From NCBI GenBank assembly GCA_037127915.1, contig JBAXXL010000023.1:319-64318 (forward strand): a DNA stretch of 64,000 nt, read 5' to 3'. The translations under genes and the position numbers were made by a program. Positions 1,216 to 58,790 of the stretch are shown one piece after another (positions within the stretch are counted from its first letter, which is position 1; every line of letters begins with the position of its first letter). Source of the stretch: a bacterium (GTDB lineage: Bacteria; Bacteroidota; Ignavibacteria; Kapaibacteriales; UBA2268). Under the pieces are notes generated by a model, which was not told the origin of the DNA, did no database searches, and worked only from the letters and a program-made list of their open reading frames with translations.

Positions 1216-1250
1216 GAATATCACCGCGAAGACGCAAAGAAATTCTGTAG

Positions 1251-14643: not shown

Positions 14644-14676
14644 AACCTTCCGCAGGTTTGAAACCTGCGGAAGGTT
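14644..14676 (+). terminator. Perfect 15-bp stem hairpin (AACCTTCCGCAGGTT-tga-AACCTGCGGAAGGTT) just after the stop of 11908..14634
   Basis: Seen directly. Starts 10 nt after the stop codon. The following tract is A-rich rather than T-rich, so it could act for either strand or as a structural element. Confidence 0.5.
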
Positions 14677-27600: not shown

Positions 27601-28396
27601 AGATTTGACTATTTATCCAAAATTTGTTTGGCACAGGGTTAATTACGCAGTTAAATACAAGCTCGAGATTATGATTCCCGATGCTTTAGTTTATCAAGCA
27701 GAAACAAGCGATACAAGTTTTCAAATGCTCGAGCCGTTGGAAAACGGTGCGGGATTATATTGGCAAGTGAGAGCTATCGGTGTTGATGAAACAGAACAAT
27801 TGTCCGATACTTGGGAATTTAGTACAATCGATGCCTTAATTGCACCAACATTGGTCAGCCCAGACGAAATGGCTCAAATTGACCCCGCAACAGCAACATT
27901 CGTTTGGAATAAAGTTCCACATTATGATGGATTATACAATATTCAGATTTACAAAAGACCCGGCTCTGTCTTGGTTATTGACGAGATTGTAGAAGATACG
28001 GTTTATACTGTTGATGAGCCTCTGCTGTACAACCAAGGTTATTATTGGCAGGTGTCTTATTTCCGTGGTGACGAAACGAGTCCTTGGTCAATAGTCAGAC
28101 GTTTCACAACTTATCCGACTTCAGTAAAAGAAAGCCCACTCTTCAGCTCAATCAAACTTTATCCTAATCCAACGGGCAGTAAAGCTGAACTAAGTATAAA
28201 CTATTCTGAAACCTGCGACGCGAAAATCTTTATCAGCACAGTGGGTGGAAAAATCATTAAAACGGATGTTATCAGATTATTAATTGGCGAAACGCGATAT
28301 GAAATTGACACGGAACACTTAACTTCGGGATCATATTATATTACAATTACCACACCTGCGGGGTATATTACAAGGGAATTAGTAGTTGTTAAATAG
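24647..28396 (+). CDS. Giant T9SS cargo protein: SBBP beta-propeller repeats, Fn3-like YYW repeats and a sorting domain
   Basis: 1249 aa. Repeats of the YSTY.GG..D...DxxGNxYxxGxTxSxDFPxTxxAYQ type (SBBP/PF06739-like). C-terminal half has the same ~95-aa YYW repeats as 15123 and 32238. Sorting domain about 88% identical to that of 32238..36194. Confidence 0.7.
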   Translation: MKNYIILTILALFSLTTVSAQNYFIENKGQWTDEVLFKNQSAGNTTWITKSSVVFDYAQYSEISENEFSATGQVIKMEFLNSNLNTEYSGKKKLSAYHNYFIGNNQNKWKSKVALYEDAVLTNVYEGIDLKFYWDEGTIRYDFIVGPKSNPNQIKLKFSGQDDISISKDSELCLTTRFGEIKHTKLLVYQMVNGQKTAIKSAFVSLADNTFKFEIGAYDKSRELVIDPLIYSTYIGTSDNDRAFEMTLAPDGKPIIVGLSWNSSYPTSSGAYQKTVKGNSDGILTKMNDDCTAVLFSTFYGGSQWEEPRGIDYDTEGNIYIAGETMSTDFPVSSMAYQKTAGGNNQSDAFVLKFSSDGSQLIFSTYLGTAQADQAKDLKIDPNGFVFVIGEARSSAFPITANAVQKTYSGGPVDGFLTVFSPDGKDLVYSTFIGGTGDDFPRKILLDGDFLYIVGHTRSTDFPVTANAYQKTIGGNRDAFLIKYRGQGTETLFSTFIGGSLDDSGIGMCFDANKNIIFTGNTFSTNYPVTNDAVQKTLAGDDDVMVTKFNPAGNLIYSTFIGGKASDRANDIRCDEFGNYYLTGMTKSNNYPTTLKALQKTYISKEDVLVTKLNPNNPSLLYSTYLAGNNEDWGRSIACYGNTVIVTGYTSSSDFLISDNAYKKTFSGNRDIFLTKFSPDEGTLDKPILVNPVKGAVDVIIQPTLIWEKVDYADAYTVIVAKDIDLTNKVFSQTGITTLQKKIDTELESNKKYYWAVTAKAGAVVGPQSDVYSFTTEVNLSVPTLISPPDKADDVVLTPKFTWSQEPNTDNYHLRLLNSNNPDDIIFEKLFPTETEYVSPITLEEGKEYFWTVRTIYNGEIGPWASISSFTTKSTIKAPILVYPADKDKYVQSKNTLFYWKKEKTATQYEIYIYEEADLKSPIKTALISDTFYINNSDLEYGKIYYWTVRSKSSNQTSSWTEMFSFQTEVVMEKPILISPENFTKDLTIYPKFVWHRVNYAVKYKLEIMIPDALVYQAETSDTSFQMLEPLENGAGLYWQVRAIGVDETEQLSDTWEFSTIDALIAPTLVSPDEMAQIDPATATFVWNKVPHYDGLYNIQIYKRPGSVLVIDEIVEDTVYTVDEPLLYNQGYYWQVSYFRGDETSPWSIVRRFTTYPTSVKESPLFSSIKLYPNPTGSKAELSINYSETCDAKIFISTVGGKIIKTDVIRLLIGETRYEIDTEHLTSGSYYITITTPAGYITRELVVVK

Positions 28397-28434
28397 TTTT
28401 AAATTTTGAATGTTGAGTTTTGAATGTAGGGGCA

Positions 28435-28465
28435 GAAAATTTTCTGCCCTTTCTTTATCAGAATT
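28435..28465 (+). terminator. GTAG-preceded hairpin terminator (TGTAG GGGCAGAAAA|TTTTCTGCCC plus T-rich)
   Basis: Perfect 20-nt palindrome immediately after the 24647..28396 stop. The 5' TGTAG flank is the one seen on the other family-A hairpins. Confidence 0.7.
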
Positions 28466-29324: not shown

Positions 29325-29640
29325 GGGGATGTGCTGTAAGCTTGCTCCGAAAGAGCTAAATCTCAATAACCGCGGGCAAAACCTGTGGGAAGTCCTAAAA
29401 CCTTATTCCCTTAATTAACCTTAGTAGAAAAATGACCGATTTGTCCGCAAACCTTATTACCTTATTGGAAAACGAAAATAAGCGAATAAGGTTAGATGAG
29501 TATATATTTCAGCTTTCCTACTAAGGTTTGAATAGAAAATAATGAACAAAATATTTTTTGTAGAGACGTTGCATGCAACGTCCCTACAAACAGTATTTTA
29601 ATAAAATCAAAAAGGCTATCCTTTTTGGGGGATAGCCTAA
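29325..29640. repeat. ~300-bp repeat B1 (includes AACCTTA cluster, GTAG hairpin 29559-29588 and GGCTATCC terminator hairpin 29613-29637)
   Basis: About 85-90% identical to 30413-30720 by eye. Internal perfect palindrome GACGTTGCATGCAACGTC preceded by TTTGTAGA. Confidence 0.65.
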
Positions 29641-36418: not shown

Positions 36419-39400
36419 ATGAAAATTATCTTTATAATATATCTAGTAACTCTATTTAATATAGTAAACTGCCAAGCGCAATTACCATCAGGAACAATAT
36501 TACACTTGAAAGCGGACGCGGGATTAGTTCTCAATGGCGATAAAGTAGTCGAATGGCAGGACCAAACTAATTCAGAAATTAAAGCTTTTCAAACTGATGG
36601 CAGTTTGCAGCCGGTTTATGTTAGTGATGGAATCAATGGCAAACCAACTGTCCGGTTCGATGGCACAAAGTTCCTTGAAGCAAGTGCTGTTTTTCCGGTT
36701 TTTGAAGATTATTCGCTTTTTTTTGTAGTTAGTATTTCGAGTTTCAATTATTATAATATGATGGTTTCCGGAAATGGTCATGGAGTATTTTACAATCCGC
36801 CACGAGCTTTTCATACCAATACATCGGTACAAGCAATTTCCAACAAAACATTATCCTTGAACAAACCTGCCCTTATGAGTGTGATTTATACGGAAAGCAC
36901 ACAAACAGTAAAGTTATATATGGATGGAGTTTTGGTAGCTGAAGCTCAAGTGGGTTCGAACTACGATCCTATAATATTTTTAGGAGCATATTATCAAAAT
37001 TATTTCTTATGCGGTGATATTCCCGAAGTTATACTTTACGAACGGGCTATGGACAATGCTGAACAAAAATCTGCTGAGTCATACCTATTTGATAAATATC
37101 TAATCGAACGTCCGGAGGACGGTTTACCAGATAAAACGTTTACCGCTATTCCTGCAAATTATCAATTATTTCCTCGTGATAAAGATAATTATACCAATGT
37201 AAAAATTGCCGGAAATTTTAAACAAACAAAATTCAATAAAATATCGGTTAAAGTTTATAAAAATAATAAAATCACAGAAACTATATCGCAGAACTTAGAT
37301 TTTGTAAATGGTTCTGCGGCTTTTAATTTTGATTGTAAGATCCATGCTGAATTAAGTAATTATAAATTTTTAATTTCCGCAGTGAACTCATCTCGTGATT
37401 CCATAATGAAAGTTAGACACAATATAGTTGCCGGAGATGTGATATTATTGGACGGACAGTCAAATACTCAAGCCAACAACAATTATTATGATATAAACGA
37501 TTTTATTAGAACATTTGGTGGAAATTTTTCAAATTCTGCGGCAGATACACTTTGGGCATTGGGAGATGATTGGTCCACCGGTTTGTTAACCAACATAGGT
37601 GCTTGGGGAATGACATTAGCTCAACGGATTTTGGAAAACCAGAAAGTTCCGGTTTGTGTTATTAACGGTGCAGTTGGCGGAACAATTATCGAATCACATT
37701 TACCCGTCCCCGGTGATAGATATAATTTATCTTCTATCTATGGCAGTATGCTTTATAGAGTAGAAAAAGCCAAACTAAAGAATGCCGCAAGAGCATTATT
37801 TTGGTATCAAGGTGAATCGAACGGAGTTTGGGATTACGAAAACAATTTTATAACGCTTACTAATGAATGGCTAAAAGATTATCCGAATATTCAAAAAATT
37901 TATACTGTCCAAATACATACCGGCTGTGGTGGAGGATATACCCATAGCCAATTGCGCGAGGTTGAACGCCGGATGCCGGAAATAATTAAAAATGTAAAAG
38001 TTGAAACAATTGCGGCTTCGGGATTGCCCGGACACGATGGTTGTCATTATGAATTAATAGGATATCAGACTTTGGGAGAACAGTTGTACCGGCAGTATAA
38101 TAGAGATTTCTTTGGTTCGAAAGATACCGTGGCTATAAGTTCTCCAAACATTAGCGAAGCATTTTTTACAAGCCCGAGTAAAGAGCAAATTGCTTTGGTT
38201 TTCAAACCAAAGCTTACCAAAATGCGTGCTCAAGCCGATACAGTTGTCAGCGGAATTGAAGCCTCATTAAAAGATTATATATATCTGAGCGATGGAGCGA
38301 AAATCATGTCTATAAATTGCGTAAATGATACCGTATTTTTAAATTTGGATAGAGGCTCAAAATCTCAGACAATAACTTATGTTCCTGAATTATATTACCA
38401 TGATTCTTACATAATTTATGAGGGACCATGGTTTTTCAACCAACGAAATATGGGAGCCTTGACATTTGATCAATTCCCAATTGTAGAAAAGAAAGCAATT
38501 ATTATAGATAATTTTACAAAAGAACTGATAGCATGCGCAAACACAGAGAATAACTTCATTATTTGCGCGGCTTCGGAAAGCGGTGGAGCAGTTGCTCAAT
38601 ACCAATGGTATAAAGATGGCGTTGAGCTTTCGGGCGAAACAAATCCTAAACTTGATTTTCCTAATTTTGATTATCCAATTAGCGGCATATACCAATGTAA
38701 GGTTTCAGCCAAAGGAGATTCTAAAGCACTATTGTCGGGAGATATTCCTGTTTATGCTTTAAGTTTACCTGAAATTACAGACCAACCGAAAGAGATCATA
38801 AATGCTCAAATCGGCGGGATATATTCGTTTGAAGTTAAAGCTCATTACCGCGGAAAAGTTCCTCCTTATTACAAGCAATTCTTCCAATGGTATAAATATA
38901 CAGCCGCAACAAATGAGTTTACACCTTTGCCGAATGGTGGTAAATTCGCAGGAGCTACTTCATCAATATTAATTGTAACAGGATTAAGCGATGAAGACTT
39001 TTGCCGAAACGGTGATTATTATTTTGTCGAGATAGTTTCACAATGCGGTTCCGTTCGTTCCAATCCATTTATAATTTCACAAAAACCTGAGATTGTATTC
39101 CGCGATAACCCTAAGGATTTTAATGTTTGTGCAAATACGGATGTCGTTTTTGAAGCTTTTGCTATAGCACCGGTTGGTTATGCGATTGATTATTCTTGGC
39201 AAAAAGACGGCGTTGATTTAATAAACAATGCACAGTACAATGGAGTGAATACTACAAAACTTCAGATATTTAATGTGGATATTACCCAAATGGGTTCCTA
39301 TAAATGTATTGCAAAAATAGTTTCTGAAAATATTTCTGTGGAAAGTACCGCCGGTACCCTGACATTCAAATCAGAACCTATTGCCGCCGCTCTCAGCGAT

Positions 39401-39958
39401 GCTAATCCTACTGTCAAGCGTGGAAACGATGTTGCCTTCAAAGTTGAACTATTGGCAGGAGCGGAGCCTTTAACCGTGGGTTGGAAATTCAATGGCGAAA
39501 TCATCAAAGAAAGTGTTTGGGATGAATTTAATAGCGATAAATTGCTGACCTTATTGCTTGAATCAGTAAACGAAAATCAAGCCGGAGAATATATCTGCTA
39601 CTTGGAAAATGAATGTGCTTTGAAAGAAGTAAATTTCCACTTAAATGTAACGAAATGGGATGAGGCAAACAGTGTAGAAGAAATTTCTGAAAATGGGTAC
39701 TCACTATATACAGCAATTCCTAATCCGACAAACGAAACTGCGACCATAAAATATATAATGCCGCGCTCAGGATTGGTAAAATTTACTTTATCCGATATTA
39801 GCGGTCGAACAATAAGAAATCTGTTTGAAGGATATGCAGTTGAAGGAATGAATACTTTGCTGATCAATGTAAAGCAACTCCATTTATCTACGGGAGTATA
39901 TTTCTATACTATGACAAGTGAAAATTTCTCCGGAGTACGTTCGATTATAGTAGAATAG
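36419..39958 (+). CDS. T9SS cargo protein: N-terminal LamG-like lectin domain, sialate O-acetylesterase-like (SASA/DUF303) domain, Ig-like repeats and a sorting domain
   Basis: 1179 aa. LamG_3-like N-terminus. SASA block I LLDGQSNTQ, block III WYQGESN, D..H (HDGCHY). Ig-like repeats (YQWYKDGVEL, YSWQKDGVDL). C-terminal sorting domain (IPNPTNETATIKY...GVYFYTMTS). Confidence 0.65.
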   Translation: MKIIFIIYLVTLFNIVNCQAQLPSGTILHLKADAGLVLNGDKVVEWQDQTNSEIKAFQTDGSLQPVYVSDGINGKPTVRFDGTKFLEASAVFPVFEDYSLFFVVSISSFNYYNMMVSGNGHGVFYNPPRAFHTNTSVQAISNKTLSLNKPALMSVIYTESTQTVKLYMDGVLVAEAQVGSNYDPIIFLGAYYQNYFLCGDIPEVILYERAMDNAEQKSAESYLFDKYLIERPEDGLPDKTFTAIPANYQLFPRDKDNYTNVKIAGNFKQTKFNKISVKVYKNNKITETISQNLDFVNGSAAFNFDCKIHAELSNYKFLISAVNSSRDSIMKVRHNIVAGDVILLDGQSNTQANNNYYDINDFIRTFGGNFSNSAADTLWALGDDWSTGLLTNIGAWGMTLAQRILENQKVPVCVINGAVGGTIIESHLPVPGDRYNLSSIYGSMLYRVEKAKLKNAARALFWYQGESNGVWDYENNFITLTNEWLKDYPNIQKIYTVQIHTGCGGGYTHSQLREVERRMPEIIKNVKVETIAASGLPGHDGCHYELIGYQTLGEQLYRQYNRDFFGSKDTVAISSPNISEAFFTSPSKEQIALVFKPKLTKMRAQADTVVSGIEASLKDYIYLSDGAKIMSINCVNDTVFLNLDRGSKSQTITYVPELYYHDSYIIYEGPWFFNQRNMGALTFDQFPIVEKKAIIIDNFTKELIACANTENNFIICAASESGGAVAQYQWYKDGVELSGETNPKLDFPNFDYPISGIYQCKVSAKGDSKALLSGDIPVYALSLPEITDQPKEIINAQIGGIYSFEVKAHYRGKVPPYYKQFFQWYKYTAATNEFTPLPNGGKFAGATSSILIVTGLSDEDFCRNGDYYFVEIVSQCGSVRSNPFIISQKPEIVFRDNPKDFNVCANTDVVFEAFAIAPVGYAIDYSWQKDGVDLINNAQYNGVNTTKLQIFNVDITQMGSYKCIAKIVSENISVESTAGTLTFKSEPIAAALSDANPTVKRGNDVAFKVELLAGAEPLTVGWKFNGEIIKESVWDEFNSDKLLTLLLESVNENQAGEYICYLENECALKEVNFHLNVTKWDEANSVEEISENGYSLYTAIPNPTNETATIKYIMPRSGLVKFTLSDISGRTIRNLFEGYAVEGMNTLLINVKQLHLSTGVYFYTMTSENFSGVRSIIVE

Positions 39959-40202: not shown

Positions 40203-41507
40203 ATGATTTACAAACGAGATTTTCATTTCTTGATTATCTTCCTGTTAAGTTTACTTTTCTTAAATTCGTGCGATACCGCAAATGTTACTGCCCCAGTGAA
40301 AAAAGCTAATTTGGAAGGTTATGTTATTGATTACATAACATACGAAAAAATGTCCGGAGCATTTGTAAAAACAGAACCTGCAACAACGGTGGTTATTACG
40401 GACAATACAGGAAAATTTGTTTTCGAGAATATTGAAGTCAAAGAGTACGTTGTTACAGCACAAAAAAATGGTTATTTCGATGGCAATATAAAAATTGTAT
40501 TAGATGCCGATAATACTAACTCTGTGATCATTCCTATGCGCGACCTGAAAAGTAATTTCGGCAATCTGCACGGATATCTTTACAGCAACCAAACAAAGAG
40601 ACCTATTGCGAATATCGATATCGAAACGATTCCTTTCAATGCAACTGCAAAAACCGACGATAAAGGATATTTTAGTATCGATTTACCACAAGAAAAATTT
40701 ACCTTAGTGTTTAAATCGGCAAATTATAAAACTTACTATCTCAACGACATTCAGGTAACCGGTAAGGTGACAGATGATTATAAATTATATTTGGAACCAT
40801 CTATTCCTGATGGAAATTCATCTTTAGCAAACTACGAAAAAGTATATTATAATTTTGAAAATGGTTATCCTTATGACTTGAGCGGTAATGGTAATCACGG
40901 CTCTTATGTTGGTGAGATTAATTATTCGTCCGGCCGATTCGGTGACGCTGTACATTTAACCGCCGGTAGTGAAAAATATATTTCATTTATTACTGTACCC
41001 TTTATAGATTACGCTAAATTAATGAAGTATTCTGTTGTTATTTGGGCAAAAGAAGAAAATCCAATAGTTAATAATAAAAGTATCTATTATTTCTTTACAG
41101 GTGACGAAAGTATGGGATTTGCTGGAATCGGCCGCAGTAGCTTATGGAATGATAGCACGGATTCTCAAAAGTATTTATGTTTTAGCACCGGAGCCGATAA
41201 GAGTACTATTTATTCACCATATATTCATCATTTTACTATTGATTACAATTCTTGGAATATGTACACTATCGTTAAAGACGGTGATATGATGACTGTTTAT
41301 ATCAATAAAGATAAGGTTGCAACTCTTCAGCAGAATAAAGCCATTAAACCAACTGTTCATTACATAGGCAAATATATTAATACAGAAAATTTAGTTAGCA
41401 CTTTCAACAATTTTGGCGGATACATTGACGAATTCAGAGTGTTTAATACTACTTTAACAGAAGAACAAGTGGCTAATCTATTTTACAATAATTCATTAGG
41501 TAAATAA
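40203..41507 (+). CDS. Lipoprotein with two CarbopepD_reg-like domains and a C-terminal LamG (Laminin_G_3) lectin-like domain; tandem paralog 1 of 4
   Basis: 434 aa. Lipobox LFLNSCDT. CarbopepD_reg-like segments (GYVIDY...VITDNTGKFVFENI). LamG_3 ending YIDEFRVFNTTLTEEQVANLF. Confidence 0.6.
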   Translation: MIYKRDFHFLIIFLLSLLFLNSCDTANVTAPVKKANLEGYVIDYITYEKMSGAFVKTEPATTVVITDNTGKFVFENIEVKEYVVTAQKNGYFDGNIKIVLDADNTNSVIIPMRDLKSNFGNLHGYLYSNQTKRPIANIDIETIPFNATAKTDDKGYFSIDLPQEKFTLVFKSANYKTYYLNDIQVTGKVTDDYKLYLEPSIPDGNSSLANYEKVYYNFENGYPYDLSGNGNHGSYVGEINYSSGRFGDAVHLTAGSEKYISFITVPFIDYAKLMKYSVVIWAKEENPIVNNKSIYYFFTGDESMGFAGIGRSSLWNDSTDSQKYLCFSTGADKSTIYSPYIHHFTIDYNSWNMYTIVKDGDMMTVYINKDKVATLQQNKAIKPTVHYIGKYINTENLVSTFNNFGGYIDEFRVFNTTLTEEQVANLFYNNSLGK

Positions 41508-41534: not shown

Positions 41535-42836
41535 ATGAAAAAGTTTATTATTGTGGTTACGCTTTTTGCATTAATTATTATGCTGGATGCATGCACAGAT
41601 AAGAACGTTGTGAAACCATTAGCAAAAGGCTCTGTTAACGGGGTTGTAGTGGATTATGTTACAGGTACACCGCTTGGAAATGTATTTATCTCCTCGGAAC
41701 CGGCTTTCACAACCAAAAAAACAGATAACACCGGTTCGTTTACATTGGATAATCTCGAACCTAATGAATATCAAATAATAGCAGAAAAATCCGATTACGA
41801 GGTGGCAAAAGTTTTAGTACATATAACTGAAGGGAAGACAACTAGTGTTAATATTCCTATGATGAAGAAAAATTTGCAGTATGCGAGATTAAGCGGTACA
41901 ATATTAGGAAGTATCGATACATTACCGCTGAAAGATGTTGAGTTAACTATTAATCCTGAAATCGATGCTTTAAAGGATCTTAAAACCGATGCCGATGGAA
42001 AATTCGATTTGTCATTGCCGCCTGGAGTTTATTCTATTACGTTTATCAAAAAAGATTATTTAACATTGGTTAAGACATTTTCATTCAATCCGTTTCAAAC
42101 TATCTCCAAAGATTTCATTATGGAATTCACTGAAGAATATGTAAATCCGACCAACGTAGTAGATCATTTGGTATATTATAGCTTTGATGAGACCGACAAT
42201 TATTTACAAGATTTTTCCGGTAACAATTTCAACGGAGTTAAATCGGGGACTATTACAACTGAAACCGGTAAATTTGGCAATTGCATCAGGACAACAGGTA
42301 CAACTGATGCCTCAGGCGGCTGGATTAGTATTCCTATGATCCTTAATGAAACAACATTCAGCATAAACTTTTGGGTAAAAGAAATTAGTTTAGCTTATTC
42401 AGGGGGGCAATCATATTTCCAAATCGGCTTGCAAAATACAGGAACTTGTTTTATTGGTAGGTCGGTTCCATGGAGTATATCAGGAGGCGGAACTGATTTG
42501 TTTTATCAATTTGCGGTTGGCGGTAACAATACTCAAACTACTAAACAACCCTTGTATGTTAACGATAATTCCTATACCCCTGCAAATTGGAATATGTTTA
42601 CTTTGGTTTATAAGACGGGGACTATGACAGCTTATATTAATGGCCAAAATGTAGGTTCCCAACAACAAAATTTTGAAATAGGTACAAGCAATAAAATAGG
42701 TATAGGTATCCAATGGTGGTCGTCTAATGCGTCAACAAGACTAAGTGCTTATTATGATGAGTTTAGAATTTTGAATGTTGGTCTTACTGCTCAACAAGTA
42801 TCACTATTGTATCAAAATAATATTTATTCCAGATAA
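41535..42836 (+). CDS. CarbopepD_reg-LamG lipoprotein, tandem paralog 2
   Basis: 433 aa. Lipobox IMLDACTD. ~45-50% identity to paralogs 3 and 4. LamG_3 ending YYDEFRILNVGLTAQQVSLLY. Confidence 0.6.
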   Translation: MKKFIIVVTLFALIIMLDACTDKNVVKPLAKGSVNGVVVDYVTGTPLGNVFISSEPAFTTKKTDNTGSFTLDNLEPNEYQIIAEKSDYEVAKVLVHITEGKTTSVNIPMMKKNLQYARLSGTILGSIDTLPLKDVELTINPEIDALKDLKTDADGKFDLSLPPGVYSITFIKKDYLTLVKTFSFNPFQTISKDFIMEFTEEYVNPTNVVDHLVYYSFDETDNYLQDFSGNNFNGVKSGTITTETGKFGNCIRTTGTTDASGGWISIPMILNETTFSINFWVKEISLAYSGGQSYFQIGLQNTGTCFIGRSVPWSISGGGTDLFYQFAVGGNNTQTTKQPLYVNDNSYTPANWNMFTLVYKTGTMTAYINGQNVGSQQQNFEIGTSNKIGIGIQWWSSNASTRLSAYYDEFRILNVGLTAQQVSLLYQNNIYSR

Positions 42837-42866: not shown

Positions 42867-44171
42867 ATGAAAAGAACAATTTTGATTTTAGGGCTGATTT
42901 GTTTATTTATCATTTCTGCATGTAATGAAAATAATCCTGTTAGCCCAATCCAGAAAGGCTTTATCAGTGGTCAAGTAACTGATTATACTACCGGCCAGCC
43001 TATAGCTAACGTATTGGTAACAACTTGTCCTTCTTCTCGAACCGCGCTGACAGATAATAATGGTAGATTCATTTTAGAAAATATTACTACTGGTGAATAT
43101 AGATTAATTGCGGAAAAAAACGAATTTTCGCCGTCATCTTCCAAAGTGAGCGTTTTATCAAACGATACTACCGATATTGCTGTACCTATGAAATTATCGT
43201 TGAATAAATACGGTTTATTGTATGGTTTATTAACCGACGAGAAGAGTTCACCCCTTGATAGTGTTGAAGTGATTATTAGTGATGGAGCAGAAACAATAGC
43301 TGATACGATTACCGATAGTAAAGGATTTTATAGCATAGCTCTTCCATTCGGCAAATATTATGTGACTTTAAGTAAATCAAATTACCAACCTGTGGATAAG
43401 GATGTTGAAGTTTTAAAAAATCAAGCGATTAATTTGAATGTTGTGTTAATCAAGACTGAAATAGAGATTCCTATCCCAAGTAAATCAGAATTATATGTTT
43501 ACTATAGTTTTAACGTTGATCCAGGAACGACTAATGTAACAGACAATTCAGCAAATGGTTTTAATGGTACGTTGATGAACAAAGACTGTGTATATGAAAC
43601 CGGCAAGTTTGGCAATTGCATAAGATTGATAGGTAAACCCGGTATCACCGGTTGTTGGATTAAACTTCCATGTGCAATGAACCTGCCGGAGTTTACTGTT
43701 AACATGTGGGTTAAAGAGATAAGCTCTAATTGGGGGTCAGGACAAGCATATTTCCAAGCAGGGAATAATTCCAATTCTGTGTGTTTGATCGCCCGTAACG
43801 CTTTTTTCAGTATAGTATCTAACACTTCTGAACTTGATTACAATTTTGCCGTGGGAGCAATAAATACTAGCGGTGCTTCTAATACTCCAATTACTTTAGC
43901 TGACAATGGGTATGATCCTTATGCTTGGAATATGTTTACATTGGTATATAAGAAAGAGGGTTTAATGGACGCATATATTAATGCTAAATTAGTTGGATCA
44001 AAAAATCAGGCGTTCAACATAAACCCAAGTGGTAATATAGGAATAAATGTGCAATGGTGGTCTGGTGATGGTGCTACCAGATTGACAGCTTGCTACGATG
44101 AGTTTAGAATTGATAAATCAGCTTTGTCCACAACAAAAATAGAAAGACTTTATAAAGAAAATAAATATTAA
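42867..44171 (+). CDS. CarbopepD_reg-LamG lipoprotein, tandem paralog 3
   Basis: 434 aa. Lipobox IISACNEN. Shared core motifs ETGKFGNCIR...WVKEIS...GQAYFQAGNN...AWNMFTLVYK...CYDEFRI. Confidence 0.6.
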   Translation: MKRTILILGLICLFIISACNENNPVSPIQKGFISGQVTDYTTGQPIANVLVTTCPSSRTALTDNNGRFILENITTGEYRLIAEKNEFSPSSSKVSVLSNDTTDIAVPMKLSLNKYGLLYGLLTDEKSSPLDSVEVIISDGAETIADTITDSKGFYSIALPFGKYYVTLSKSNYQPVDKDVEVLKNQAINLNVVLIKTEIEIPIPSKSELYVYYSFNVDPGTTNVTDNSANGFNGTLMNKDCVYETGKFGNCIRLIGKPGITGCWIKLPCAMNLPEFTVNMWVKEISSNWGSGQAYFQAGNNSNSVCLIARNAFFSIVSNTSELDYNFAVGAINTSGASNTPITLADNGYDPYAWNMFTLVYKKEGLMDAYINAKLVGSKNQAFNINPSGNIGINVQWWSGDGATRLTACYDEFRIDKSALSTTKIERLYKENKY

Positions 44172-44320: not shown

Positions 44321-45625
44321 ATGTTAAAAAAATTATTAATCCTCGTGGTACTTCTATCGCCGATTCTTTTCGGCTGTAAGGAAGATACCCCTGTAACTCC
44401 GAGTACAAACGGAAATATTGCCGGCGTTGTACTTGATTTCGATTCTGCTTTGCCATTGGAAAATGTATTTGTTTCAACAATTCCAATCACAACAACAGTA
44501 AAAACAGATGCTCAAGGAAGGTTTACCTTAGAAAATCTGGAAGCTCAAGTTTACAAATTAGTTGTCGAAAAATCAGGGTATGATTCTTACACTACCTCGA
44601 TTTCAGTGCTCGCGACAAAAACTACTCAAATCACTGTTCCGCTCAAATCAAAAACTTCCGGTTACGGAACAATTAGCGGATTTGTTACCAACAAAAAAGA
44701 TTTGAAACCAATCAGCAATGTGATTATTTCAATTTCGCCTGCACCGGATGGATGGACCGATATTAGTACCGACGATACAGGTTATTACACAATTCAATTA
44801 CCGGCAGGTGTTTACACCATGCATTTAACTAAAACTGATTTTAAATCTATAAGCAAAGTATTTACTTTAACCAAAAGCGAATCCGCAAATTTAGATATCG
44901 TTATGGAAGAAGGAACTACTGATCCGCCTATTGATGAAAATTTATATGTTTATTACAGTTTTGATACTCAATTAGGCGGTTCTGCTGTAAAAGATAATTC
45001 CGGCAATGGTTATAACGCCCAAATCGTAAATAATTGTCAATATGAAACAGGTAAGTTTGGAAGTGCAATTAAAACAATAGAAGGTTCAGGTTATTCAGGT
45101 GGATGGATTAAAATGGATTTCCCCTTCAATTTATCTGAATTCACTATAAGTTTTTGGGTTAAAGAAGTATCCGCAGAGTTTGGTGGAGGTCAAGCATACT
45201 TCCAAGCAGGGAACAATGATGATGGTGTATGCCTTATGGGAAGGAATGGAGCTTGGTCTAATATGAATTCAATAGGCGATGGGATAAATTATCATTTTGC
45301 TGTAGGAGCCAACAGTAACGATTATAATGGCTCTAAAGTTCCTTTAGCAGTTAATGACGTAAACTACAATCCTGAATCATGGAATATGTTAACCATGACT
45401 TATAAAAATGGGAAATTTTATGCATATATAAATGGAAATTTAGTTGGTTCAAAGAACCAACCTTTTTCCGTTGTTCAATCTGATTTGATGGGCCTTGGAA
45501 TACAATGGTGGGAAAGTAGTGCTTCAACAAGGCTTACTGCCTATTATGATGAGTTTAGAATATATACAGTATCGTTAACTCAATCCCAAATCACGAATTT
45601 ATACGAAACGAATTCCTTGAATTAA
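44321..45625 (+). CDS. CarbopepD_reg-LamG lipoprotein, tandem paralog 4
   Basis: 434 aa. Lipobox ILFGCKED. Same core motifs. Terminator hairpin at 45654-45685. Confidence 0.6.
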   Translation: MLKKLLILVVLLSPILFGCKEDTPVTPSTNGNIAGVVLDFDSALPLENVFVSTIPITTTVKTDAQGRFTLENLEAQVYKLVVEKSGYDSYTTSISVLATKTTQITVPLKSKTSGYGTISGFVTNKKDLKPISNVIISISPAPDGWTDISTDDTGYYTIQLPAGVYTMHLTKTDFKSISKVFTLTKSESANLDIVMEEGTTDPPIDENLYVYYSFDTQLGGSAVKDNSGNGYNAQIVNNCQYETGKFGSAIKTIEGSGYSGGWIKMDFPFNLSEFTISFWVKEVSAEFGGGQAYFQAGNNDDGVCLMGRNGAWSNMNSIGDGINYHFAVGANSNDYNGSKVPLAVNDVNYNPESWNMLTMTYKNGKFYAYINGNLVGSKNQPFSVVQSDLMGLGIQWWESSASTRLTAYYDEFRIYTVSLTQSQITNLYETNSLN

Positions 45626-48946: not shown

Positions 48947-49744
48947 ATGAAAATAAATGACGATAAATATTATAAGCAATACCAAGATTTGATCGGTGTA
49001 AATATTGATAATCTTATCAAGTCATTTGATTTTAACGAAGCAGAGACCGATTTAGGATATAAAACTCAGGCAAGTGCTGTATTTTCTTCGAATATCGAAG
49101 GAAATACCATTGATTTGAATTCATTTATGAATTATAAATTATCGCAGGAAAAATTTAAATCCCACAAAGAAATTCGGGAAATCGAAGATTTAGTTTCCGC
49201 TTATGAATTTGCTCAATCCAACCAACTTAATGAAAAGACATTTTTGCATTGTCATAAAATTTTCTCAAAAAATTTAGTTATCGAAAGCAAGCAAGGAAAG
49301 TATCGCACTGAGAAAGTCGGAGTTTTTGGTCAATCAGGACTTGTTTATTTAGCAGTGGAACCGGAATTTGTTCAAGAAGAAATGAAAGAGTTTTTCAAAG
49401 GTATAGCCGATTTACTAAAAATGAATTTATCAAATTCCGAAGTATTTTATTATGCCTCTCTGATTCATCTTAAATTTGTTCATATACATCCTTTTATGGA
49501 TGGGAATGGACGCGCCGCCCGATTAATTGAAAAATGGTTCATCTCTGAAAAGTTGGGTGAAAGATTTTGGAAACTTTTATCCGAAAAATATTATAAAGAG
49601 CATCAGGCGAAATATTATAATAATATCAATTTAGGTGTGAATTATTATGAGTTGAATTACGACAGATGCCTTCCCTTTTTGATGATGCTACCGCAAGCGA
49701 TGGATAATAGTTCGAAAAATACCAATAACTACTTAACAACCTAA
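48947..49744 (+). CDS. fic: Fic-family protein (class II, cis inhibitory motif)
   Basis: 265 aa. Fic active-site motif HPFMDGNGRAARL. N-terminal [ST]xxxE[GN] inhibitory motif SSNIEGN. Confidence 0.85.
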   Translation: MKINDDKYYKQYQDLIGVNIDNLIKSFDFNEAETDLGYKTQASAVFSSNIEGNTIDLNSFMNYKLSQEKFKSHKEIREIEDLVSAYEFAQSNQLNEKTFLHCHKIFSKNLVIESKQGKYRTEKVGVFGQSGLVYLAVEPEFVQEEMKEFFKGIADLLKMNLSNSEVFYYASLIHLKFVHIHPFMDGNGRAARLIEKWFISEKLGERFWKLLSEKYYKEHQAKYYNNINLGVNYYELNYDRCLPFLMMLPQAMDNSSKNTNNYLTT

Positions 49745-49899
49745 TGCTTAAGCGTAAGGTTGAAAAACATTATTCCTATTTAAATCTCAAATTATTCTTA
49801 TTAATAAAAAAAATCTTTGTGTAACGAAATTACAAAAAATGTGTATATAGACTAATACTTTATGAAAAAATAATTTTTTTATATTTTATTGGAGTATAT

Positions 49900-51294
49900 A
49901 TGAGATATTTATGGTCAATTTTGTTATTATTATGTCTTTCTCTGATAACTGTTGTAGCAAAAGAGAATGATAATCGGAATAAAACAAATCCCTTATTACA
50001 AGGGAATAAGGAATTACTGGACCAAGTCGTACTTTATTCAGCTAACGGTGATTCAACCAAAAGCATTTACGAATATGATGCTAATGGAAATTTAGCAACC
50101 ACTTTAACAAAAAAATGGCAAACAGAAAAGTGGGAAGATTCAAAAAAATATTCTTATACTTACAATCAAGACAATAAGCAGATATTACAGCTTGATGAAG
50201 AATTTAAAAATGATGCTTGGCAAAGTACACAACGTTCTACTATGACTTACGACGCTTATGGATTTTTATCACAAAATTTGATCGAAGTTTTCAAAAATGA
50301 TCAATGGATTAATCAAAGCCTCACCTCTTATGCAAACACTGAAAATGGAGATGTATTGTCTTACAGATTTGAAGTATGGTTGAATGATAAATGGGAACTC
50401 GCGCGGGCTCAAGATTATACTTATAATGAAAATGGTAAAAAGTCCAATTATACTGATGAGAGCTGGGAAGCGGGTCATTTGACAAGAAAGATGCGTACAA
50501 ATTACGGTTATGATGTAAAGGGAAATCAAATTACTGAAAGTCTTGAGATGTACGAAAATGAAGTGTGGACTGAAGTTTACCGTGCTAATTATACTTATGA
50601 TTCTGAAGGGAATAACACTCTGTATGTTTCCGAAAACCAGCAGGATGGCGAGTGGTCTTTTACAGAACGTAGAACTAGCGAATACGATTCCAAAGGTAAT
50701 ATGTTGTCGGAAAGAGATGAATGGTTTGATGGAACAAAATGGTTTTATTTTGCAAAATATACGTATACATTCAGTGAAAATAATCATGAACTTACATTTT
50801 TACAACAAAGTTATGACACAATTAATTTAGTTTGGGAAGATCATTATAGGAGAACTACTACCGAGAATGAGAAAGGCAATATTTCTTCTATTGTTTCTGA
50901 AGCTTGGGTAAGCGATAAATGGGTAAAAGACAATAATATGCTAGTTATTTTTGATAAAACGGGCAAAATGTTTACATATATTGGATGTAAAATTGAAGTT
51001 TCATATAAAGAGGTAAATGATGTTAAAGAAGAACCTGAACATCAAATAATACTTAGTTGTTCGCCTAATCCGGCAGGTGATTTTATAACGATAAGCGCGG
51101 GAGCAATCAACCCCATGCTTAAGCATGGGGTTGATGCCGCTACTGAAATCATTATCTATAATACTCTCGGCGAAAAAGTATTATCTGTAGGAACAGGTCG
51201 TGACCTGTCCGCACCGATTAATATTTCCGATTTACCAAAAGGTATGTATTTTATAAAGGTTGGAACTGAAACAACGAAATTTGTAAAGATGTAA
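49900..51294 (+). CDS. T9SS cargo protein with tandem YD/RHS-like repeats
   Basis: 464 aa. Signal peptide. ~25-aa periodic W.....Y.YD..GN units (YEYDANGN, YTYNENGK, YTYDSEGN, SEYDSKGN). Sorting domain SPNPAGDFITISAGAINPMLKHGVD...LSVGTGRDLSAPINISDLPKGMYFI. Confidence 0.65.
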   Translation: MRYLWSILLLLCLSLITVVAKENDNRNKTNPLLQGNKELLDQVVLYSANGDSTKSIYEYDANGNLATTLTKKWQTEKWEDSKKYSYTYNQDNKQILQLDEEFKNDAWQSTQRSTMTYDAYGFLSQNLIEVFKNDQWINQSLTSYANTENGDVLSYRFEVWLNDKWELARAQDYTYNENGKKSNYTDESWEAGHLTRKMRTNYGYDVKGNQITESLEMYENEVWTEVYRANYTYDSEGNNTLYVSENQQDGEWSFTERRTSEYDSKGNMLSERDEWFDGTKWFYFAKYTYTFSENNHELTFLQQSYDTINLVWEDHYRRTTTENEKGNISSIVSEAWVSDKWVKDNNMLVIFDKTGKMFTYIGCKIEVSYKEVNDVKEEPEHQIILSCSPNPAGDFITISAGAINPMLKHGVDAATEIIIYNTLGEKVLSVGTGRDLSAPINISDLPKGMYFIKVGTETTKFVKM

Positions 51295-51480: not shown

Positions 51481-51486
51481 AATGTA

Positions 51487-57707: not shown

Positions 57708-57890
57708 GGGATCCGTCATTCTGAACGAAGTGAAGAATCCATCTTCAATTAATTAAAAATTGAAAGTTGAAAGTTGAAAATAAGAAGAAGAATTCACCGC
57801 AAAGACGCGGAGACGCGAAGAAATTGTTTTATCTGTAGGGACAGGTCGCGACCTGTCCACCTTTGCAACTCGTAATTCGTAATTGATTGA
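57708..57890. repeat. Family-A repeat, most complete copy (W-X-Y-Z, GTAG hairpin GGACAGGTCGCGACCTGTCC, CGTAATTCGTAATTGATTGAT)
   Basis: Perfect 20-nt palindrome at 57839-57858 with 5' flank GAAGAAATTGTTTTATCTGTAGG, shared with sorting-domain coding sequence at 51170-51210 and 14510-14550. Confidence 0.65.
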
Positions 57891-58462: not shown

Positions 58463-58790
58463 TATATACCTTTTAAGCAAATTTATTATATGATTTTATA
58501 TATTTACAACGAATAAAAATAACGAATATTTGAAGATAATATAACGGCTAATTATAAATTATAAATGAGAAGAAGAAAAAACAATAAAAAGACCTAGGTT
58601 GAGGTCGAATGTTTGTAGAAAAATGCACCCCGTTTTTGAAAAACGACCCCAGCGTGGTCGTGTCTTTTTCTTTCTTGATTATTCCCGATTTTTCAAAGGA
58701 GTTTAGGGGCTTTCTCTTCTAGGGCGTATGCAATACGCCCCTACATTAACAATTTACAATTAACCATTATTGCTTCATACCCCACACCCC

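What the first reader, a model, noticed from the sequence alone, without database searches (positions are those of the whole stretch)
51100..51215. Two GC-rich palindromes embedded in frame in the T9SS sorting-domain coding sequence of two cargo genes, with an identical copy in intergenic DNA
Gene 49900..51294 carries a perfect 30-nt palindrome ATCAACCCCATGCTTAAGCATGGGGTTGAT (51106-51135, encoding INPMLKHGVD). 85 nt downstream it carries TTATCTGTAG + GAACAGGTCGTGACCTGTCC (51181-51210, encoding VLSVGTGRDLS). Gene 11908..14634 has the same two structures at the same 85-nt spacing: ATCAACCCCA-agcttaaacg-TGGGGTTGAT at 14446-14475, and TTATCTGTAG + GGACAGATCGCGACCTGTCC at 14521-14550. Surrounding DNA of the two genes looks only ~65-70% identical by eye, but the palindromes are nearly identical. 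They use GGG, CGC, CTG and CCC codons that are unusual for this ~35% GC sequence. A perfect copy (GAAGAAATTGTTTTATCTGTAG + GGACAGGTCGCGACCTGTCC) sits in intergenic DNA at 57815-57858. This points to selection on DNA or RNA structure, or to a mobile hairpin module living inside coding sequence. Candidate roles are recombination sites for sorting-domain exchange, RNA stability elements, or REP-like elements.
Basis: seen in the sequence. Interest (0 to 1): 0.72.

Follow-up and report, generated by a model that had tools for sequence, protein, structure and literature searches.

The report
Mobile REP palindromes inside secretion-tag genes
The two DNA palindromes read in frame inside the removable secretion tag of two genes are copies of REP-type repeat elements, one being the signature repeat of a transposase family found across many bacterial phyla, and such hairpins repeatedly settle in, get swapped at, and cause breaks at two tolerant loops of this tag.

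Summary
Both palindromes occur at the stated coordinates, far above chance, in the Por_Secre_tail (T9SS) domains of genes 11908..14634 and 49900..51294, with a third copy of palindrome 2 in non-coding DNA.

Palindrome 2 is a slightly decayed copy of the 28-nt "double-foot" REP GTAGGGACAGGTCGCGACCTGTCCCTAC. That REP occurs in at least 118 loci from many phyla with unrelated flanks. It lies inside or next to RAYT-type (TnpA-REP subclass 2.4) genes, and 95 of 120 relatives of one such gene encode it in their variable loop. This is a known kind of element.

What appears new is the host. In one Ignavibacteria-like subfamily of sorting domains, two fixed positions carry in-frame palindromes from several unrelated families. 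Orthologues of gene A carry different ones, or none. Synonymous divergence is suppressed in palindrome 2 (third-position identity 0.88 vs 0.52), but stem changes are never compensated. A close relative has lost the body of gene B by a deletion joining two palindrome-1 copies.

Best reading: tolerated selfish hairpin elements in a disposable tag, with recombinogenic side effects. Palindrome 1's family and mobiliser remain unidentified. I rate this a new variant of a known kind, of moderate interest.

The parts
51064..51285 (+). T9SS type A sorting domain (Por_Secre_tail) of gene B (49900..51294); hosts both palindromes
   Evidence: Pfam PF18962, E 1.1e-10, residues 389-462. AF2 model is a beta-sandwich, mean pLDDT 76.
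51106..51135 (+). Palindrome 1, perfect 30-nt copy, read in frame as INPMLKHGVD (sorting-domain position 1)
   Evidence: ssDNA fold -14.2 kcal/mol, z -8.1. The peptide (residues 33-40 of the model) is the only internal segment with pLDDT below 50, between two strands.
51187..51210 (+). Palindrome 2: GTAG foot plus decayed REP hairpin (GAACAGGTCGTGACCTGTCC), read as VGTGRDLS (position 2)
   Evidence: Two uncompensated stem mismatches. Fold z -2.0.
14398..14619 (+). T9SS type A sorting domain of gene A (11908..14634, GH20-like/CBM cargo)
   Evidence: Pfam PF18962, E 2.1e-10, residues 831-904.
14446..14475 (+). Palindrome 1, imperfect copy (ATCAACCCCAAGCTTAAACGTGGGGTTGAT), read as INPKLKRGVD
   Evidence: Fold -9.5 kcal/mol, z -5.3. 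Aligns as a 7-residue insertion relative to the four other sorting domains in the window.
14527..14550 (+). Palindrome 2: GTAG foot plus REP hairpin with one mismatch (GGACAGATCGCGACCTGTCC), read as VGTDRDLS
   Evidence: Fold z -1.1.
57815..57858 (+). Non-coding copy: perfect single-foot REP (GTAG + GGACAGGTCGCGACCTGTCC, 57835-57858) preceded by 20 nt (57815-57834) that match the coding flank of the sorting-domain copies. Probably a sorting-domain-derived fragment ending at the 3' edge of the hairpin.
   Evidence: 19 of the 22 nt up to and including GTAG match gene A (sequence read directly). All other lineage copies share this coding flank. No gene covers it.
49737..49762 (+). Diverged palindrome-1-like hairpin (CAACCTAATGCTTAAGCGTAAGGTTG) overlapping the stop codon of the Fic-like gene 48947..49744. 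It is the left partner of the deletion seen in relative L124.
   Evidence: (family D16). Fold -5.8 kcal/mol, z -4.1. Junction alignment A2.
14644..14676 (+). 33-nt palindrome AACCTTCCGCAGGTTTGAAACCTGCGGAAGGTT, 10 nt after the stop of gene A. The same family is read in frame (KPSEGFEPSEGS) at position 1 or 2 of related sorting domains.
   Evidence: About 91% identical to the coding copy in L122. Coding copies in L120-L122, L126, L128, L129, L188 and L206.
28426..28449 (+). Another GTAG-tagged REP (GTAGGGGCAGAAAATTTTCTGCCC), 30 nt downstream of T9SS cargo gene 24647..28396
29560..29587 (.). Double-foot REP GTAGAGACGTTGCATGCAACGTCCCTAC in non-coding DNA
58722..58744 (-). GTAG-tagged REP GTAGGGGCGTATTGCATACGCCC in non-coding DNA
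1247..1271 (+). GTAG-tagged hairpin GTAGAGACGACCCACCGGGTCGTCT between genes

Best explanation
The palindromes are short REP-type repeat elements sitting inside coding DNA. They are not protein-driven or purpose-built signals.

Palindrome 2 is a decaying copy of the 28-nt double-foot REP GTAGGGACAGGTCGCGACCTGTCCCTAC. This is the cognate repeat of one clade of RAYT / TnpA-REP subclass 2.4 HUH-Y1 enzymes. That REP is carried in frame inside the enzyme's own gene, which would explain why it is identical across phyla.

In an Ignavibacteria-like lineage, REPs of this class and at least three other palindrome families have repeatedly entered, replaced one another at, or been lost from two fixed places in one subfamily of T9SS sorting domains. 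The other families are palindrome 1 (ATCRAC..TTAA..GTYGAT), the AACCTTCCGAAGGTT class, and the CCCCTC..GAGGGG class. Position 1 is a loop between the first two strands. Position 2 is a strand end plus the following loop.

Inferred: they persist there for three reasons. The sites are structurally permissive. One of the open reading frames of GTAG..CTAC palindromes is the one used. And the sorting domain is a 3'-terminal tag that is cleaved off after export, so it sits next to the 3'-of-gene habitat that REPs prefer.

Inferred: the high sequence conservation reflects recent arrival or DNA-level re-templating (RAYT action at the GTAG foot, gene conversion from other copies, or quasi-palindrome template switching), not selection for an RNA or DNA structure.

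Shown: the elements act as rearrangement breakpoints.
For: 1. Layout and excess. There are 8 GTAG-tagged GC-rich hairpins in the window against 0.03 expected, most of them intergenic.

2. Spread. A genome-collection scan that left GTAG out of the pattern found at least 118 loci in Bacteroidota, Patescibacteria, Nitrospinota, Gammaproteobacteria, Omnitrophota, Fibrobacter, Spirochaetia and others. Of 182 oriented hits, 141 have GTA directly 5' and 69 have CTAC directly 3'; flanks are otherwise unrelated.

3. RAYT link. Eight of those loci carry a RAYT-like gene, always with the REP inside it or within about 200 nt. L116 has inverted copies on both sides of the gene.

4. Enzyme identity. These proteins hit NCBIfam REP-associated tyrosine transposase (E 4e-17) and PDB 4ER8. 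Their motifs NH[IFV]H / WQ / Y..NP are present in 106, 118 and 114 of 120 homologues, and 95 of 120 encode TGRDLS in the variable loop.

5. Literature match. Quentin 2018 (PMC6006769) describes exactly this: subclass 2.4, double-foot REPs, in-frame insertion in tnpA-REP, Bacteroidetes plus scattered phyla. Di Nocera 2013 (PMC3733652) documents in-frame intragenic GTAG REPs.

6. Different palindromes at the same two sites in related sorting domains. Hairpins with at least 9 paired bases occur in 26 of 80 domains against 2 of 72 upstream control segments. By my count from the listing, 12 of the 13 closest loci (L126-L138) have a GC-rich one.

7. Orthologue turnover. The 85% orthologue of gene A has AAACCTTCCGAAGGTT at position 1. 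The 75% orthologue has a palindrome-1 variant and no REP at position 2. The 62% orthologues have neither. Sister orthologues keep TGTAG followed by unrelated hairpins.

8. Sequence, not structure, is conserved. Third-position identity is 0.88 in palindrome 2 against 0.52 elsewhere, yet there are 0-3 uncompensated stem mismatches per copy and the coding copies fold weakly.

9. Permissive sites. The AF2 model puts the palindrome-1 peptide in the only internal segment with pLDDT below 50, and the palindrome-2 peptide at a strand end plus loop.

10. Breakpoints. Relative L124 (93% identity over 977 nt of the neighbouring gene) lacks window ~49763-51114, with the junction in the shared ATGCTTAAGCG centre of two palindrome-1 copies. 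The intergenic copy ends exactly at the hairpin's 3' edge.
Against: - No RAYT-like gene is present in the 64-kb window or in 241 kb of related contigs, so activity in this lineage is not shown.
- Within the lineage, every palindrome-2 copy but one is in a sorting domain, so a genome-wide REP population is not demonstrated here.
- Palindrome 1 has no GTAG foot, no transposase link, and no hits in viral contigs. Its membership in any mobile family is inferred only from palindromy, from one largely non-coding relative, and from turnover among orthologues.
- Suppressed synonymous change, and the two compensated pair changes that keep palindrome 1 perfect in L207, are also what selection on a nucleic-acid structure would give.
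- No empty-site/filled-site pair with clean boundaries was obtained. Replacement by gene conversion from paralogous sorting domains cannot be separated from true transposition.
Confidence: 0.7

Rival explanations
1. The hairpins are functional nucleic-acid structures selected within the 3' part of these mRNAs or genes. They might act as REP-like mRNA stabilisers against 3' exonucleases, as translational pause sites that help co-ordinate export, or as protein-binding DNA sites. On this view any stable palindrome at these two positions will do.
For: Fixed positions with different palindromes look like covariation. Palindrome 1 is very stable and stays perfect in L207 through two compensated changes. 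Synonymous divergence is suppressed. Di Nocera 2013 argues that many REPs act as RNA elements.
Against: The coding copies of palindrome 2 fold no better than about 1-2 sd above shuffles, and all 12 stem substitutions are uncompensated. Orthologues of gene A at 62% identity have no palindrome at either site, and one at 75% lacks the second. Four other sorting domains in the same window have none. The same sequences are ordinary intergenic REPs elsewhere. Rfam finds nothing. Quasi-palindrome template switching can create 'compensated' changes without selection (own knowledge).
Confidence: 0.15
2. The palindromes are sites of a dedicated recombination system that exchanges or deletes sorting-domain cassettes (programmed shuffling or phase variation of T9SS cargo).
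For: There is a deletion of the gene B body between two palindrome-1 copies in a close relative. A fragment ends exactly at a hairpin edge. Hairpins are swapped behind a constant GTAG in sister orthologues. HUH-Y1 enzymes cut and rejoin at such feet (Quentin 2018; Ton-Hoang 2012, PMC3333891, title and abstract only).
Against: Only one deletion event was seen, and it is explained by ordinary recombination or slippage between repeats sharing an 11-nt core. No recombinase or RAYT lies nearby. The palindromes lie inside the domain, not at its boundary. Elements from unrelated families occupy the sites.
Confidence: 0.1
3. Plain paralogue conservation: the peptides INPMLKHGVD and VGTGRDLS are selected at the protein level, or the two domains were recently homogenised by gene conversion, and the palindromy is incidental.
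For: The two genes share a sorting-domain subfamily. All lineage copies of palindrome 2 keep the same frame and distance to the stop.
Against: A perfect 30-nt and a 28-nt palindrome are not expected by chance. The same 28-mer occurs in at least 118 unrelated loci in other phyla, in non-coding DNA and in RAYT genes. Rare codons are used. Conservation is at synonymous sites. Orthologues replace the peptides with unrelated ones.
Confidence: 0.05

Closest known systems
GTAG-tagged REPs of TnpA-REP subclass 2.4 (RAYT group 4), 'canonical long' and 'double-foot' types (Quentin et al. 2018, PMC6006769; Bertels et al. 2017; Di Nocera et al. 2013, PMC3733652)
   Same: A 5' GTAG foot directly on a GC-rich stem, with a full form GTAG...CTAC. 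Copies lie inside and beside RAYT genes with NH[IFV]H / WQ / YIxNNP motifs. In-frame insertion between the HUH and Tyr motifs. Found in Bacteroidota plus scattered phyla.
   Different: In the window the copies are single-foot and partly decayed. Two of the three are inside a secretion-tag domain rather than extragenic or in the RAYT gene. No RAYT gene is seen in the window or in related contigs. The published surveys I read did not list GTAG REPs in T9SS domains or in Ignavibacteria.
Intragenic in-frame palindromic repeats: Rickettsia palindromic elements (RPE; Ogata et al. 2000, own knowledge) and intragenic GTAG/CGTC REPs of Opitutus terrae and R. conorii (Di Nocera 2013)
   Same: Short palindromic repeats are inserted in frame in real genes, translated, and apparently tolerated in loops. 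The same REP is also found in frame in UvrC-, MutL-C-terminal- and YchF-like open frames in other phyla, judged by reading the C-terminal peptides only. This echoes the repair-gene bias reported in 2013.
   Different: Here one small domain is hit at two fixed positions by several unrelated palindrome families, with turnover between orthologues. RPEs are longer (about 100-150 bp) and specific to Rickettsia. No sequence similarity to RPEs was tested or is expected.
BIMEs / mosaic REP clusters of enterobacteria and pseudomonads
   Same: The intergenic DNA of the window is a patchwork of short repeated modules including REPs, mostly downstream of genes.
   Different: Many different low-copy palindromes, rather than one or two high-copy REP families in regular alternating arrays. 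The non-REP modules are uncharacterised.
IS200/IS605 single-strand transposition (TnpA-Y1, hairpin ends, insertion 3' of a fixed tetra- or pentanucleotide)
   Same: A constant short tag (here GTAG) next to a variable hairpin. Sister orthologues keep TGTAG while the hairpin differs. This would fit insertion or exchange 3' of a tag, but that is inference.
   Different: No transposase gene travels with the elements. No insertion event with defined ends was captured. RAYT-driven REP mobility itself is still unproven in the literature I read.

Membership tests
GTAG-tagged REP, TnpA-REP subclass 2.4 type (palindrome 2) | Conserved 5' GT[AG]G tetranucleotide directly at the foot of the hairpin | tested here: met
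   GTAG precedes all three window copies. GTA is directly 5' in 141 of 182 oriented hits from a scan whose pattern excluded it.
GTAG-tagged REP, TnpA-REP subclass 2.4 type (palindrome 2) | 'Double foot' (GT[AG]G ... C[TC]AC) or 'canonical long' form with three G-C pairs at the base of the stem | tested here: inconclusive
   The consensus in other genomes is the double-foot 28-mer with GGG/CCC at its base (69 of 182 hits have 3' CTAC). The window copies lack CTAC and start G-C, G-C, A-T, so they are single-foot derivatives.
GTAG-tagged REP, TnpA-REP subclass 2.4 type (palindrome 2) | Physical association with a cognate RAYT/TnpA-REP gene (flanking it or inserted in it) | tested here: met
   Met in other genomes. 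8 of 118 loci have the gene, always with the REP inside it or within about 200 nt. 95 of 120 homologues encode TGRDLS in the loop. NCBIfam NF047646 E 4e-17, below the equivalog cutoff.
GTAG-tagged REP, TnpA-REP subclass 2.4 type (palindrome 2) | A RAYT gene in the same genome as the copies studied | tested here: not met
   No tblastn hit in the 64-kb window or in 241 kb of related contigs. The rest of the genome is not available, so absence is not shown.
GTAG-tagged REP, TnpA-REP subclass 2.4 type (palindrome 2) | Multi-copy dispersal in the host genome, mostly extragenic and downstream of genes | not testable with these tools
   Only 64 kb is available: 3 copies, 1 non-coding. Other GTAG REPs in the window are extragenic.
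REP or other mobile palindrome family (palindrome 1) | Recognisable tag (GTAG or CGTC) or link to a transposase | tested here: not met
   There is no GTAG or CGTC foot on the consensus ATCAACCCCA..TGGGGTTGAT. Some variants embed GTAG/CTAC internally (L136; L207). No transposase link was found.
REP or other mobile palindrome family (palindrome 1) | Copies in unrelated, non-homologous contexts | tested here: inconclusive
   There is one diverged relative outside a sorting domain, at 49737-49762, overlapping the stop of the upstream gene. All other copies are at sorting-domain position 1. 0 hits in viral contigs.
In-frame intragenic palindromic repeats (RPE-like) | Insertion keeps the reading frame and is translated as part of a recognisable protein | tested here: met
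   The Pfam domain spans both palindromes.
In-frame intragenic palindromic repeats (RPE-like) | Inserted peptide lies in a surface loop, away from the structural core | tested here: met
   AF2 model only. The palindrome-1 peptide has pLDDT below 50 between strands 25-30 and 46-50. The palindrome-2 peptide is the end of strand 56-61 plus the following loop, with confidence about 72 against 94 on either side. No experimental structure.
In-frame intragenic palindromic repeats (RPE-like) | Homologues lacking the insert exist (presence/absence polymorphism) | tested here: met
   Orthologues P0008-P0010 lack both. P0007 lacks the second. P0006 has a different first element. L120 and L127 lack palindrome 1.
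T9SS type A C-terminal sorting domain | Match to Pfam Por_Secre_tail above the gathering score, at the extreme C-terminus | tested here: met
   41.1 and 42.1 bits against a cutoff of 27; the matches end 4 and 2 residues before the stop.
Intrinsic terminator | GC-rich hairpin followed by a T-run, downstream of a gene | tested here: not met
   Both elements are inside coding sequence and are followed by GATGCC / GCACCG, not T-runs.
Known structured RNA family (Rfam) | Covariance-model match at the gathering score | tested here: not met
   0 matches in the whole window.

The most novel reading that the evidence does not exclude
The two sorting-domain positions could be true hot spots of an active single-strand DNA process. 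A RAYT-type enzyme, or template switching, would exchange hairpin cassettes behind a constant GTAG anchor. This would continually rewrite two loops of the T9SS sorting signal and create repeat pairs that delete or reshuffle cargo genes. That would be a natural, site-directed cassette exchange operating inside coding DNA, and the first in-genome record of REP replacement at a fixed site.
Probability: 0.12. Interest if true: 0.75.

Novelty: new variant of a known kind. Interest (0 to 1): 0.55.

Why it matters
How REPs move is still an open question. Their mobility by RAYTs has never been caught directly. Orthologous genes that keep the same GTAG codon but carry unrelated hairpins behind it, together with presence/absence series at two fixed coding positions, give a compact natural data set for reconstructing insertion, replacement and loss events.

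It also shows that the T9SS sorting domain tolerates 8-12 foreign residues at two defined sites. That is useful for engineering secretion tags and for interpreting sorting-domain alignments and HMMs.

Annotators should know that peptide words such as VGTGRDLSL, VGAIHELPL or KPSEGFEPSEG in proteins are translated repeat elements, not conserved protein motifs.

Finally, carrying the REP inside the RAYT gene offers a simple explanation for why an identical 28-mer is found across phyla.

Tried and rejected
- **Viral-contig scans** for palindrome 1 and for palindrome 2 with its coding flank: 0 hits each. Uninformative.
- **Rfam** on the whole window: nothing.
- **Literature string search** for the 20-mer: no paper. 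Searches linking T9SS with palindromic or REP elements found nothing relevant.
- **RAYT in the window:** I looked by tblastn with two RAYT-like proteins and found none. Also none in 241 kb of related loci.
- **Terminators:** considered and rejected, because the elements are inside ORFs and have no T-run.
- **Chance or protein-level conservation:** rejected.
- **Intergenic copy as an ordinary independent REP insertion:** considered, but 19 of 22 nt of shared coding-type 5' flank makes a sorting-domain-derived fragment more likely.
- **Test of the other GTAG...CTAC palindromes:** I hoped the last protein search would show that VGAIHELPL, VGAHCNVPL and similar peptides also occur in RAYT loops. 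The top 120 hits were all the VGTGRDLSL clade, so that prediction remains untested.
- **Taxonomic placement:** only approximate. Named orthologues of gene A are from Ignavibacteria, Kapabacteria or Bacteroidota MAGs at 46% identity or less.
- **First loop-extraction script** failed on a too-strict pattern and was redone.
Full report
**1. Checking the observation**

The three sites read exactly as described. ATCAACCCCA-N10-TGGGGTTGAT occurs twice, at 14446 and 51106, with none expected. GGACAGGTCGCGACCTGTCC occurs three times with 1, 2 and 0 mismatches, at 14531, 51191 and 57839, again with none expected.

Genes 11908..14634 (GH20-like/CBM cargo) and 49900..51294 both end in Pfam Por_Secre_tail domains. 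Both palindromes are read in frame. Gene A encodes VGTDRDLS and gene B encodes VGTGRDLS.

Between the two domains, DNA identity is 0.90 in palindrome 1, 0.88 in palindrome 2 and 0.56 elsewhere. The codons used (GGG, CTG, CCC) are rare in this 35% GC window. As single-stranded DNA, palindrome 1 is a very stable hairpin (-14.2 and -9.5 kcal/mol, z -8 and -5). The two coding copies of palindrome 2 are weak (z -2.0 and -1.1), compared with the intergenic copy (z -2.7) and the full 28-mer (z -6.8).

**2. What palindrome 2 is**

The window holds 8 "GTAG + GC-rich hairpin" hits (seven distinct elements, since the double-foot palindrome at 29560 is counted on both strands) against 0.03 expected, most of them intergenic.

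I scanned 185,579 species genomes with GGRACAGRTCGYGACCTGTCC, deliberately leaving GTAG out of the pattern. The hits come from Bacteroidota (many Pontibacter), Patescibacteria, Nitrospinota, Gammaproteobacteria, Omnitrophota, Fibrobacter, Spirochaetia, Zixibacteria, Ignavibacteriales and others.

The flanks are unrelated. Even so, GTA lies directly 5' in 141 of 182 oriented hits and CTAC directly 3' in 69. The real unit is therefore the perfect 28-nt palindrome GTAGGGACAGGTCGCGACCTGTCCCTAC.

Eight loci carry a small gene with the motifs NHIH ... WQRSFHDHIIR ... YIRDNP. In every one, the palindrome lies inside that gene or within about 200 nt of it. In Pontibacter oryzae (L116), inverted copies flank the gene. 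These proteins match NCBIfam "REP-associated tyrosine transposase" (E 4e-17, below the equivalog cutoff), weakly match Pfam Y1_Tnp, and match E. coli TnpA-REP, PDB 4ER8.

A database search found 1806 relatives, many named RayT by their sources. Among the best 120, 95 encode TGRDLS in the variable loop after the HUH strand, often several times.

This is the situation published for TnpA-REP subclass 2.4 (RAYT group 4): "double-foot" GT[AG]G...C[TC]AC REPs, REPs inserted in frame in the tnpA-REP gene between the HUH and Tyr motifs, abundance in Bacteroidetes and Cyanobacteria, and scattered occurrence elsewhere (Quentin et al. 2018, PMC6006769). GTAG-tagged REPs and in-frame intragenic REPs in general are described by Di Nocera et al. 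2013 (PMC3733652).

Palindrome 2 is therefore a known kind of element. Because the REP is carried inside the enzyme's own gene, any transfer of the gene would carry the repeat with it. I infer that this explains the cross-phylum identity.

**3. What is special here**

A protein search with the sorting domain found five metagenomic relatives. Their DNA shows different palindromes at the same two places.

| Position | Palindromes found | Where |
|---|---|---|
| 2 | GTAGGGACAGGTCGCGACCTGTCC | L120-L122 |
| 2 | GTAGGGGCAATTCATGAATTGCCCCTAC (perfect 28-mer) | L119 |
| 1 | Palindrome 1 | gene A, gene B, L119, L123 |
| 1 | AACCTTCCGAAGGTT, single or doubled | L120-L122 |

The AACCTTCCGAAGGTT family also sits in non-coding DNA 10 nt after the stop codon of gene A.

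A metagenome scan with the domain alignment returned 80 sorting-domain loci. Hairpins with at least 9 paired bases occur in 26 of the 80 domains, but in only 2 of 72 upstream coding control segments. By my count from the listing, 12 of the 13 closest loci (L126-L138) carry a GC-rich palindrome of 20-35 nt in frame at position 1 and/or position 2.

These palindromes belong to several families:
- GTAG...CTAC REPs with different stems
- the AACCTTCCGAAGGTT class
- a CCCCTC..GAGGGG class
- the palindrome-1 class (ATCRAC..TTAA..GTYGAT)

The same class can sit at either position. More distant T9SS domains have only weak AT-rich hairpins.

**4. Turnover among orthologues**

Gene A has full-length orthologues at graded identity. 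The few that carry names are from Ignavibacteria, Kapabacteria or Bacteroidota MAGs.

| Orthologue | Identity to gene A | Position 1 | Position 2 |
|---|---|---|---|
| P0006 / L206 | 85% | AAACCTTCCGAAGGTT | palindrome 2 |
| P0007 / L207 | 75% | ATCAACCCTACGCTTAAGCGTAGGGTTGAT | no REP |
| P0008-P0010 | ~62% | none | none |

The L207 element is a perfect 30-nt palindrome with two compensated pair changes relative to gene B.

The sister orthologues P0023/L208 and P0024/L209 keep TGTAG at the same codon, but it is followed by AGACAGGTCTCAGACCTGTCT in one and GGGCAATTCATGAATTGCCC in the other. The elements are therefore gained, lost and replaced at fixed sites on the timescale of species divergence.

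**5. Selection or re-templating?**

Across nine domains that carry palindrome 2, third-codon-position identity is 0.88 inside the element and 0.52 outside. Where the amino acid is the same, the codon is identical in 204 of 239 comparisons inside and 532 of 944 outside.

However, all stem substitutions (0-3 per copy) break pairs and none is compensated. The conserved sequence equals the cross-phylum REP consensus. This fits recent arrival, or copying from other REP copies, better than selection for a hairpin.

For palindrome 1 the question stays open. It is strong and shows compensated changes. Quasi-palindrome template switching can produce such changes without selection (own knowledge).

**6. 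Why these sites**

An AF2 model of the gene B domain (mean pLDDT 76) puts the palindrome-1 peptide in the only internal segment with pLDDT below 50, between strands 25-30 and 46-50. The palindrome-2 peptide falls at the end of strand 56-61 and in the following loop, where confidence drops to about 72 against 94 on either side.

REPs prefer positions just 3' of genes (Di Nocera 2013). The T9SS sorting domain is the 3'-terminal part of the gene and is cleaved off after export (established knowledge of T9SS). I infer that it is the most forgiving coding DNA next to the normal REP habitat. One of the three frames of a GTAG palindrome contains the stop codon TAG, so only in-frame survivors are seen.

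**7. Breakpoints**

L124/L125 come from a close relative (93% identity over 977 nt of the neighbouring alanine-racemase-like gene). They lack window ~49763-51114, which is the whole body of gene B. The junction lies in the ATGCTTAAGCG centre shared by a palindrome-1-like hairpin at the stop of the upstream Fic-like gene (49737-49762) and by palindrome 1 in the sorting domain. A 59-residue stub remains.

The non-coding copy at 57815-57858 matches gene A in 19 of 22 nt of the coding-type 5' flank and ends exactly at the 3' edge of the hairpin. All nine other lineage copies lie at position 2 of a sorting domain. It is most simply a sorting-domain-derived fragment.

**8. Limits**

- No RAYT gene is present in the window or in 241 kb of related contigs.
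- The whole genome is not available.
- Palindrome 1 has no tag and no known mobiliser.
- No clean empty-site/filled-site pair was captured.
- Replacement by gene conversion between paralogous sorting domains cannot be separated from transposition.
- Taxonomy is approximate.

**9. Verdict**

In-frame REPs are known. What I did not find in the literature is the recurrent, multi-family colonisation of two fixed sites of a T9SS sorting domain, with turnover among orthologues. I rate this a new variant of a known kind, interest 0.55.

Noticed in passing
L001-L118 (genome-contig hits): An identical 28-nt palindrome, GTAGGGACAGGTCGCGACCTGTCCCTAC, occurs in genomes of at least eight phyla with unrelated flanks. 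Embedding of the REP inside the RAYT gene may explain this, but the breadth (CPR bacteria, Nitrospinota, sponge symbionts) is striking.
   Followed up: partly
L025:1889-2174; L070:4066-4923; L032:6612-7434: Arrays of the REP. L025 has a 44-nt tandem period with an identical 20-nt linker. L070 has four copies at a 279-nt period inside an open frame. L032 has five copies in and around a RAYT gene.
   Followed up: no
L099, L100, L114, L117 (3' of the REP): Partial tandem duplications of the right arm (GTACGCGACCTGTCC repeated 2-3 times). They are mirrored in RAYT loop peptides such as RDLSVRDLSVRDLS and suggest slippage at the hairpin.
   Followed up: no
L093, L085, L087, L002: The same REP lies in long open frames in other phyla. 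Judging only by reading the C-terminal peptides, these resemble UvrC (Roizmanbacteria), the MutL C-terminus (Gracilibacteria), YchF (Paceibacterota) and an aminoacyl-tRNA synthetase (Flavobacterium restrictum). None was checked against a protein library.
   Followed up: no
Pontibacter loci, e.g. L014, L016, L019, L031, L036, L037, L061, L103; and L001, L028, L035, L052, L056, L069, L076, L077: In Pontibacter the REP is the centre of two larger repeat families with conserved flanks (...TATACTTTGTAG..REP..GCGCGAG...CTATGAAACTTATAC, and ...TTCTCGTGG.TATAGTTCCGTAG..REP..AACTATAGAACTATA). These look like MITE-like composites.
   Followed up: no
window 57715-57739 and 51378-51400: Short repeated module GTCATTCTGAACGAAGTGAAGAATC (ATTCT..AGAAT stem) in non-coding DNA. 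An orthologue of gene A (P0046) has a peptide, VIPAKAGI, at sorting-domain position 1 that could be a translated relative of this module class. Not checked at the DNA level.
   Followed up: no
window 14727-14769 and 57782-57822: Repeated non-coding module AGAAGAAGAATTCACCGCAAAGACGC[AG]GAGA[CT]GC. One copy is downstream of gene A and one directly abuts the intergenic REP fragment.
   Followed up: no
window 28583-28610, 30365-30388, 51460-51483, 57871-57894; also 28519-28573, 30295-30349, 57735-57789: More short repeated intergenic modules (CGTAATTCGTAATTGATTG; GAATCCATCTTC..ATTGAAAAT..GTTGAAAATGAGAAGAA). The intergenic DNA is a mosaic of such pieces (families D4, D14, D17).
   Followed up: no
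window 48947-49744 vs L124:1029-1373: The Fic-like gene (HPFxDGNGR motif) of the window is replaced in the close relative by a 23S_rRNA_IVP-family gene, while about 90 nt of the Fic gene's 3' end is retained. This is a second rearrangement at the same locus.
   Followed up: partly
window 40203-45625: Four tandem paralogous genes of 433-434 residues (40203..41507, 41535..42836, 42867..44171, 44321..45625) with conserved blocks (families D5, D6, D13, D20).
   Followed up: no
window 29320-29640 vs 30402-30720; 30746-31396 vs 31399-32067: Duplicated non-coding segments (72-87% identical), each followed by a GTAG palindrome or a decayed one, next to two tandem paralogous lipoprotein-like genes (216 and 222 residues).
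   Followed up: no
window 38192-38213: A 10-bp perfect-stem hairpin, GCTTTGGTTTTCAAACCAAAGC, inside gene 36419..39958, far from its sorting domain. It may be chance.
   Followed up: no
L136:1501-1746, L137:1435-1698, L207:3233-3262: Palindrome-1-class elements share outer arms ATCRAC/GTYGAT and a central TTAA, but the inner 6-7 nt covary. Some inner parts are themselves GTAG..CTAC or CTAC..GTAG mini-palindromes. This hints at nested or hybrid elements.
   Followed up: partly
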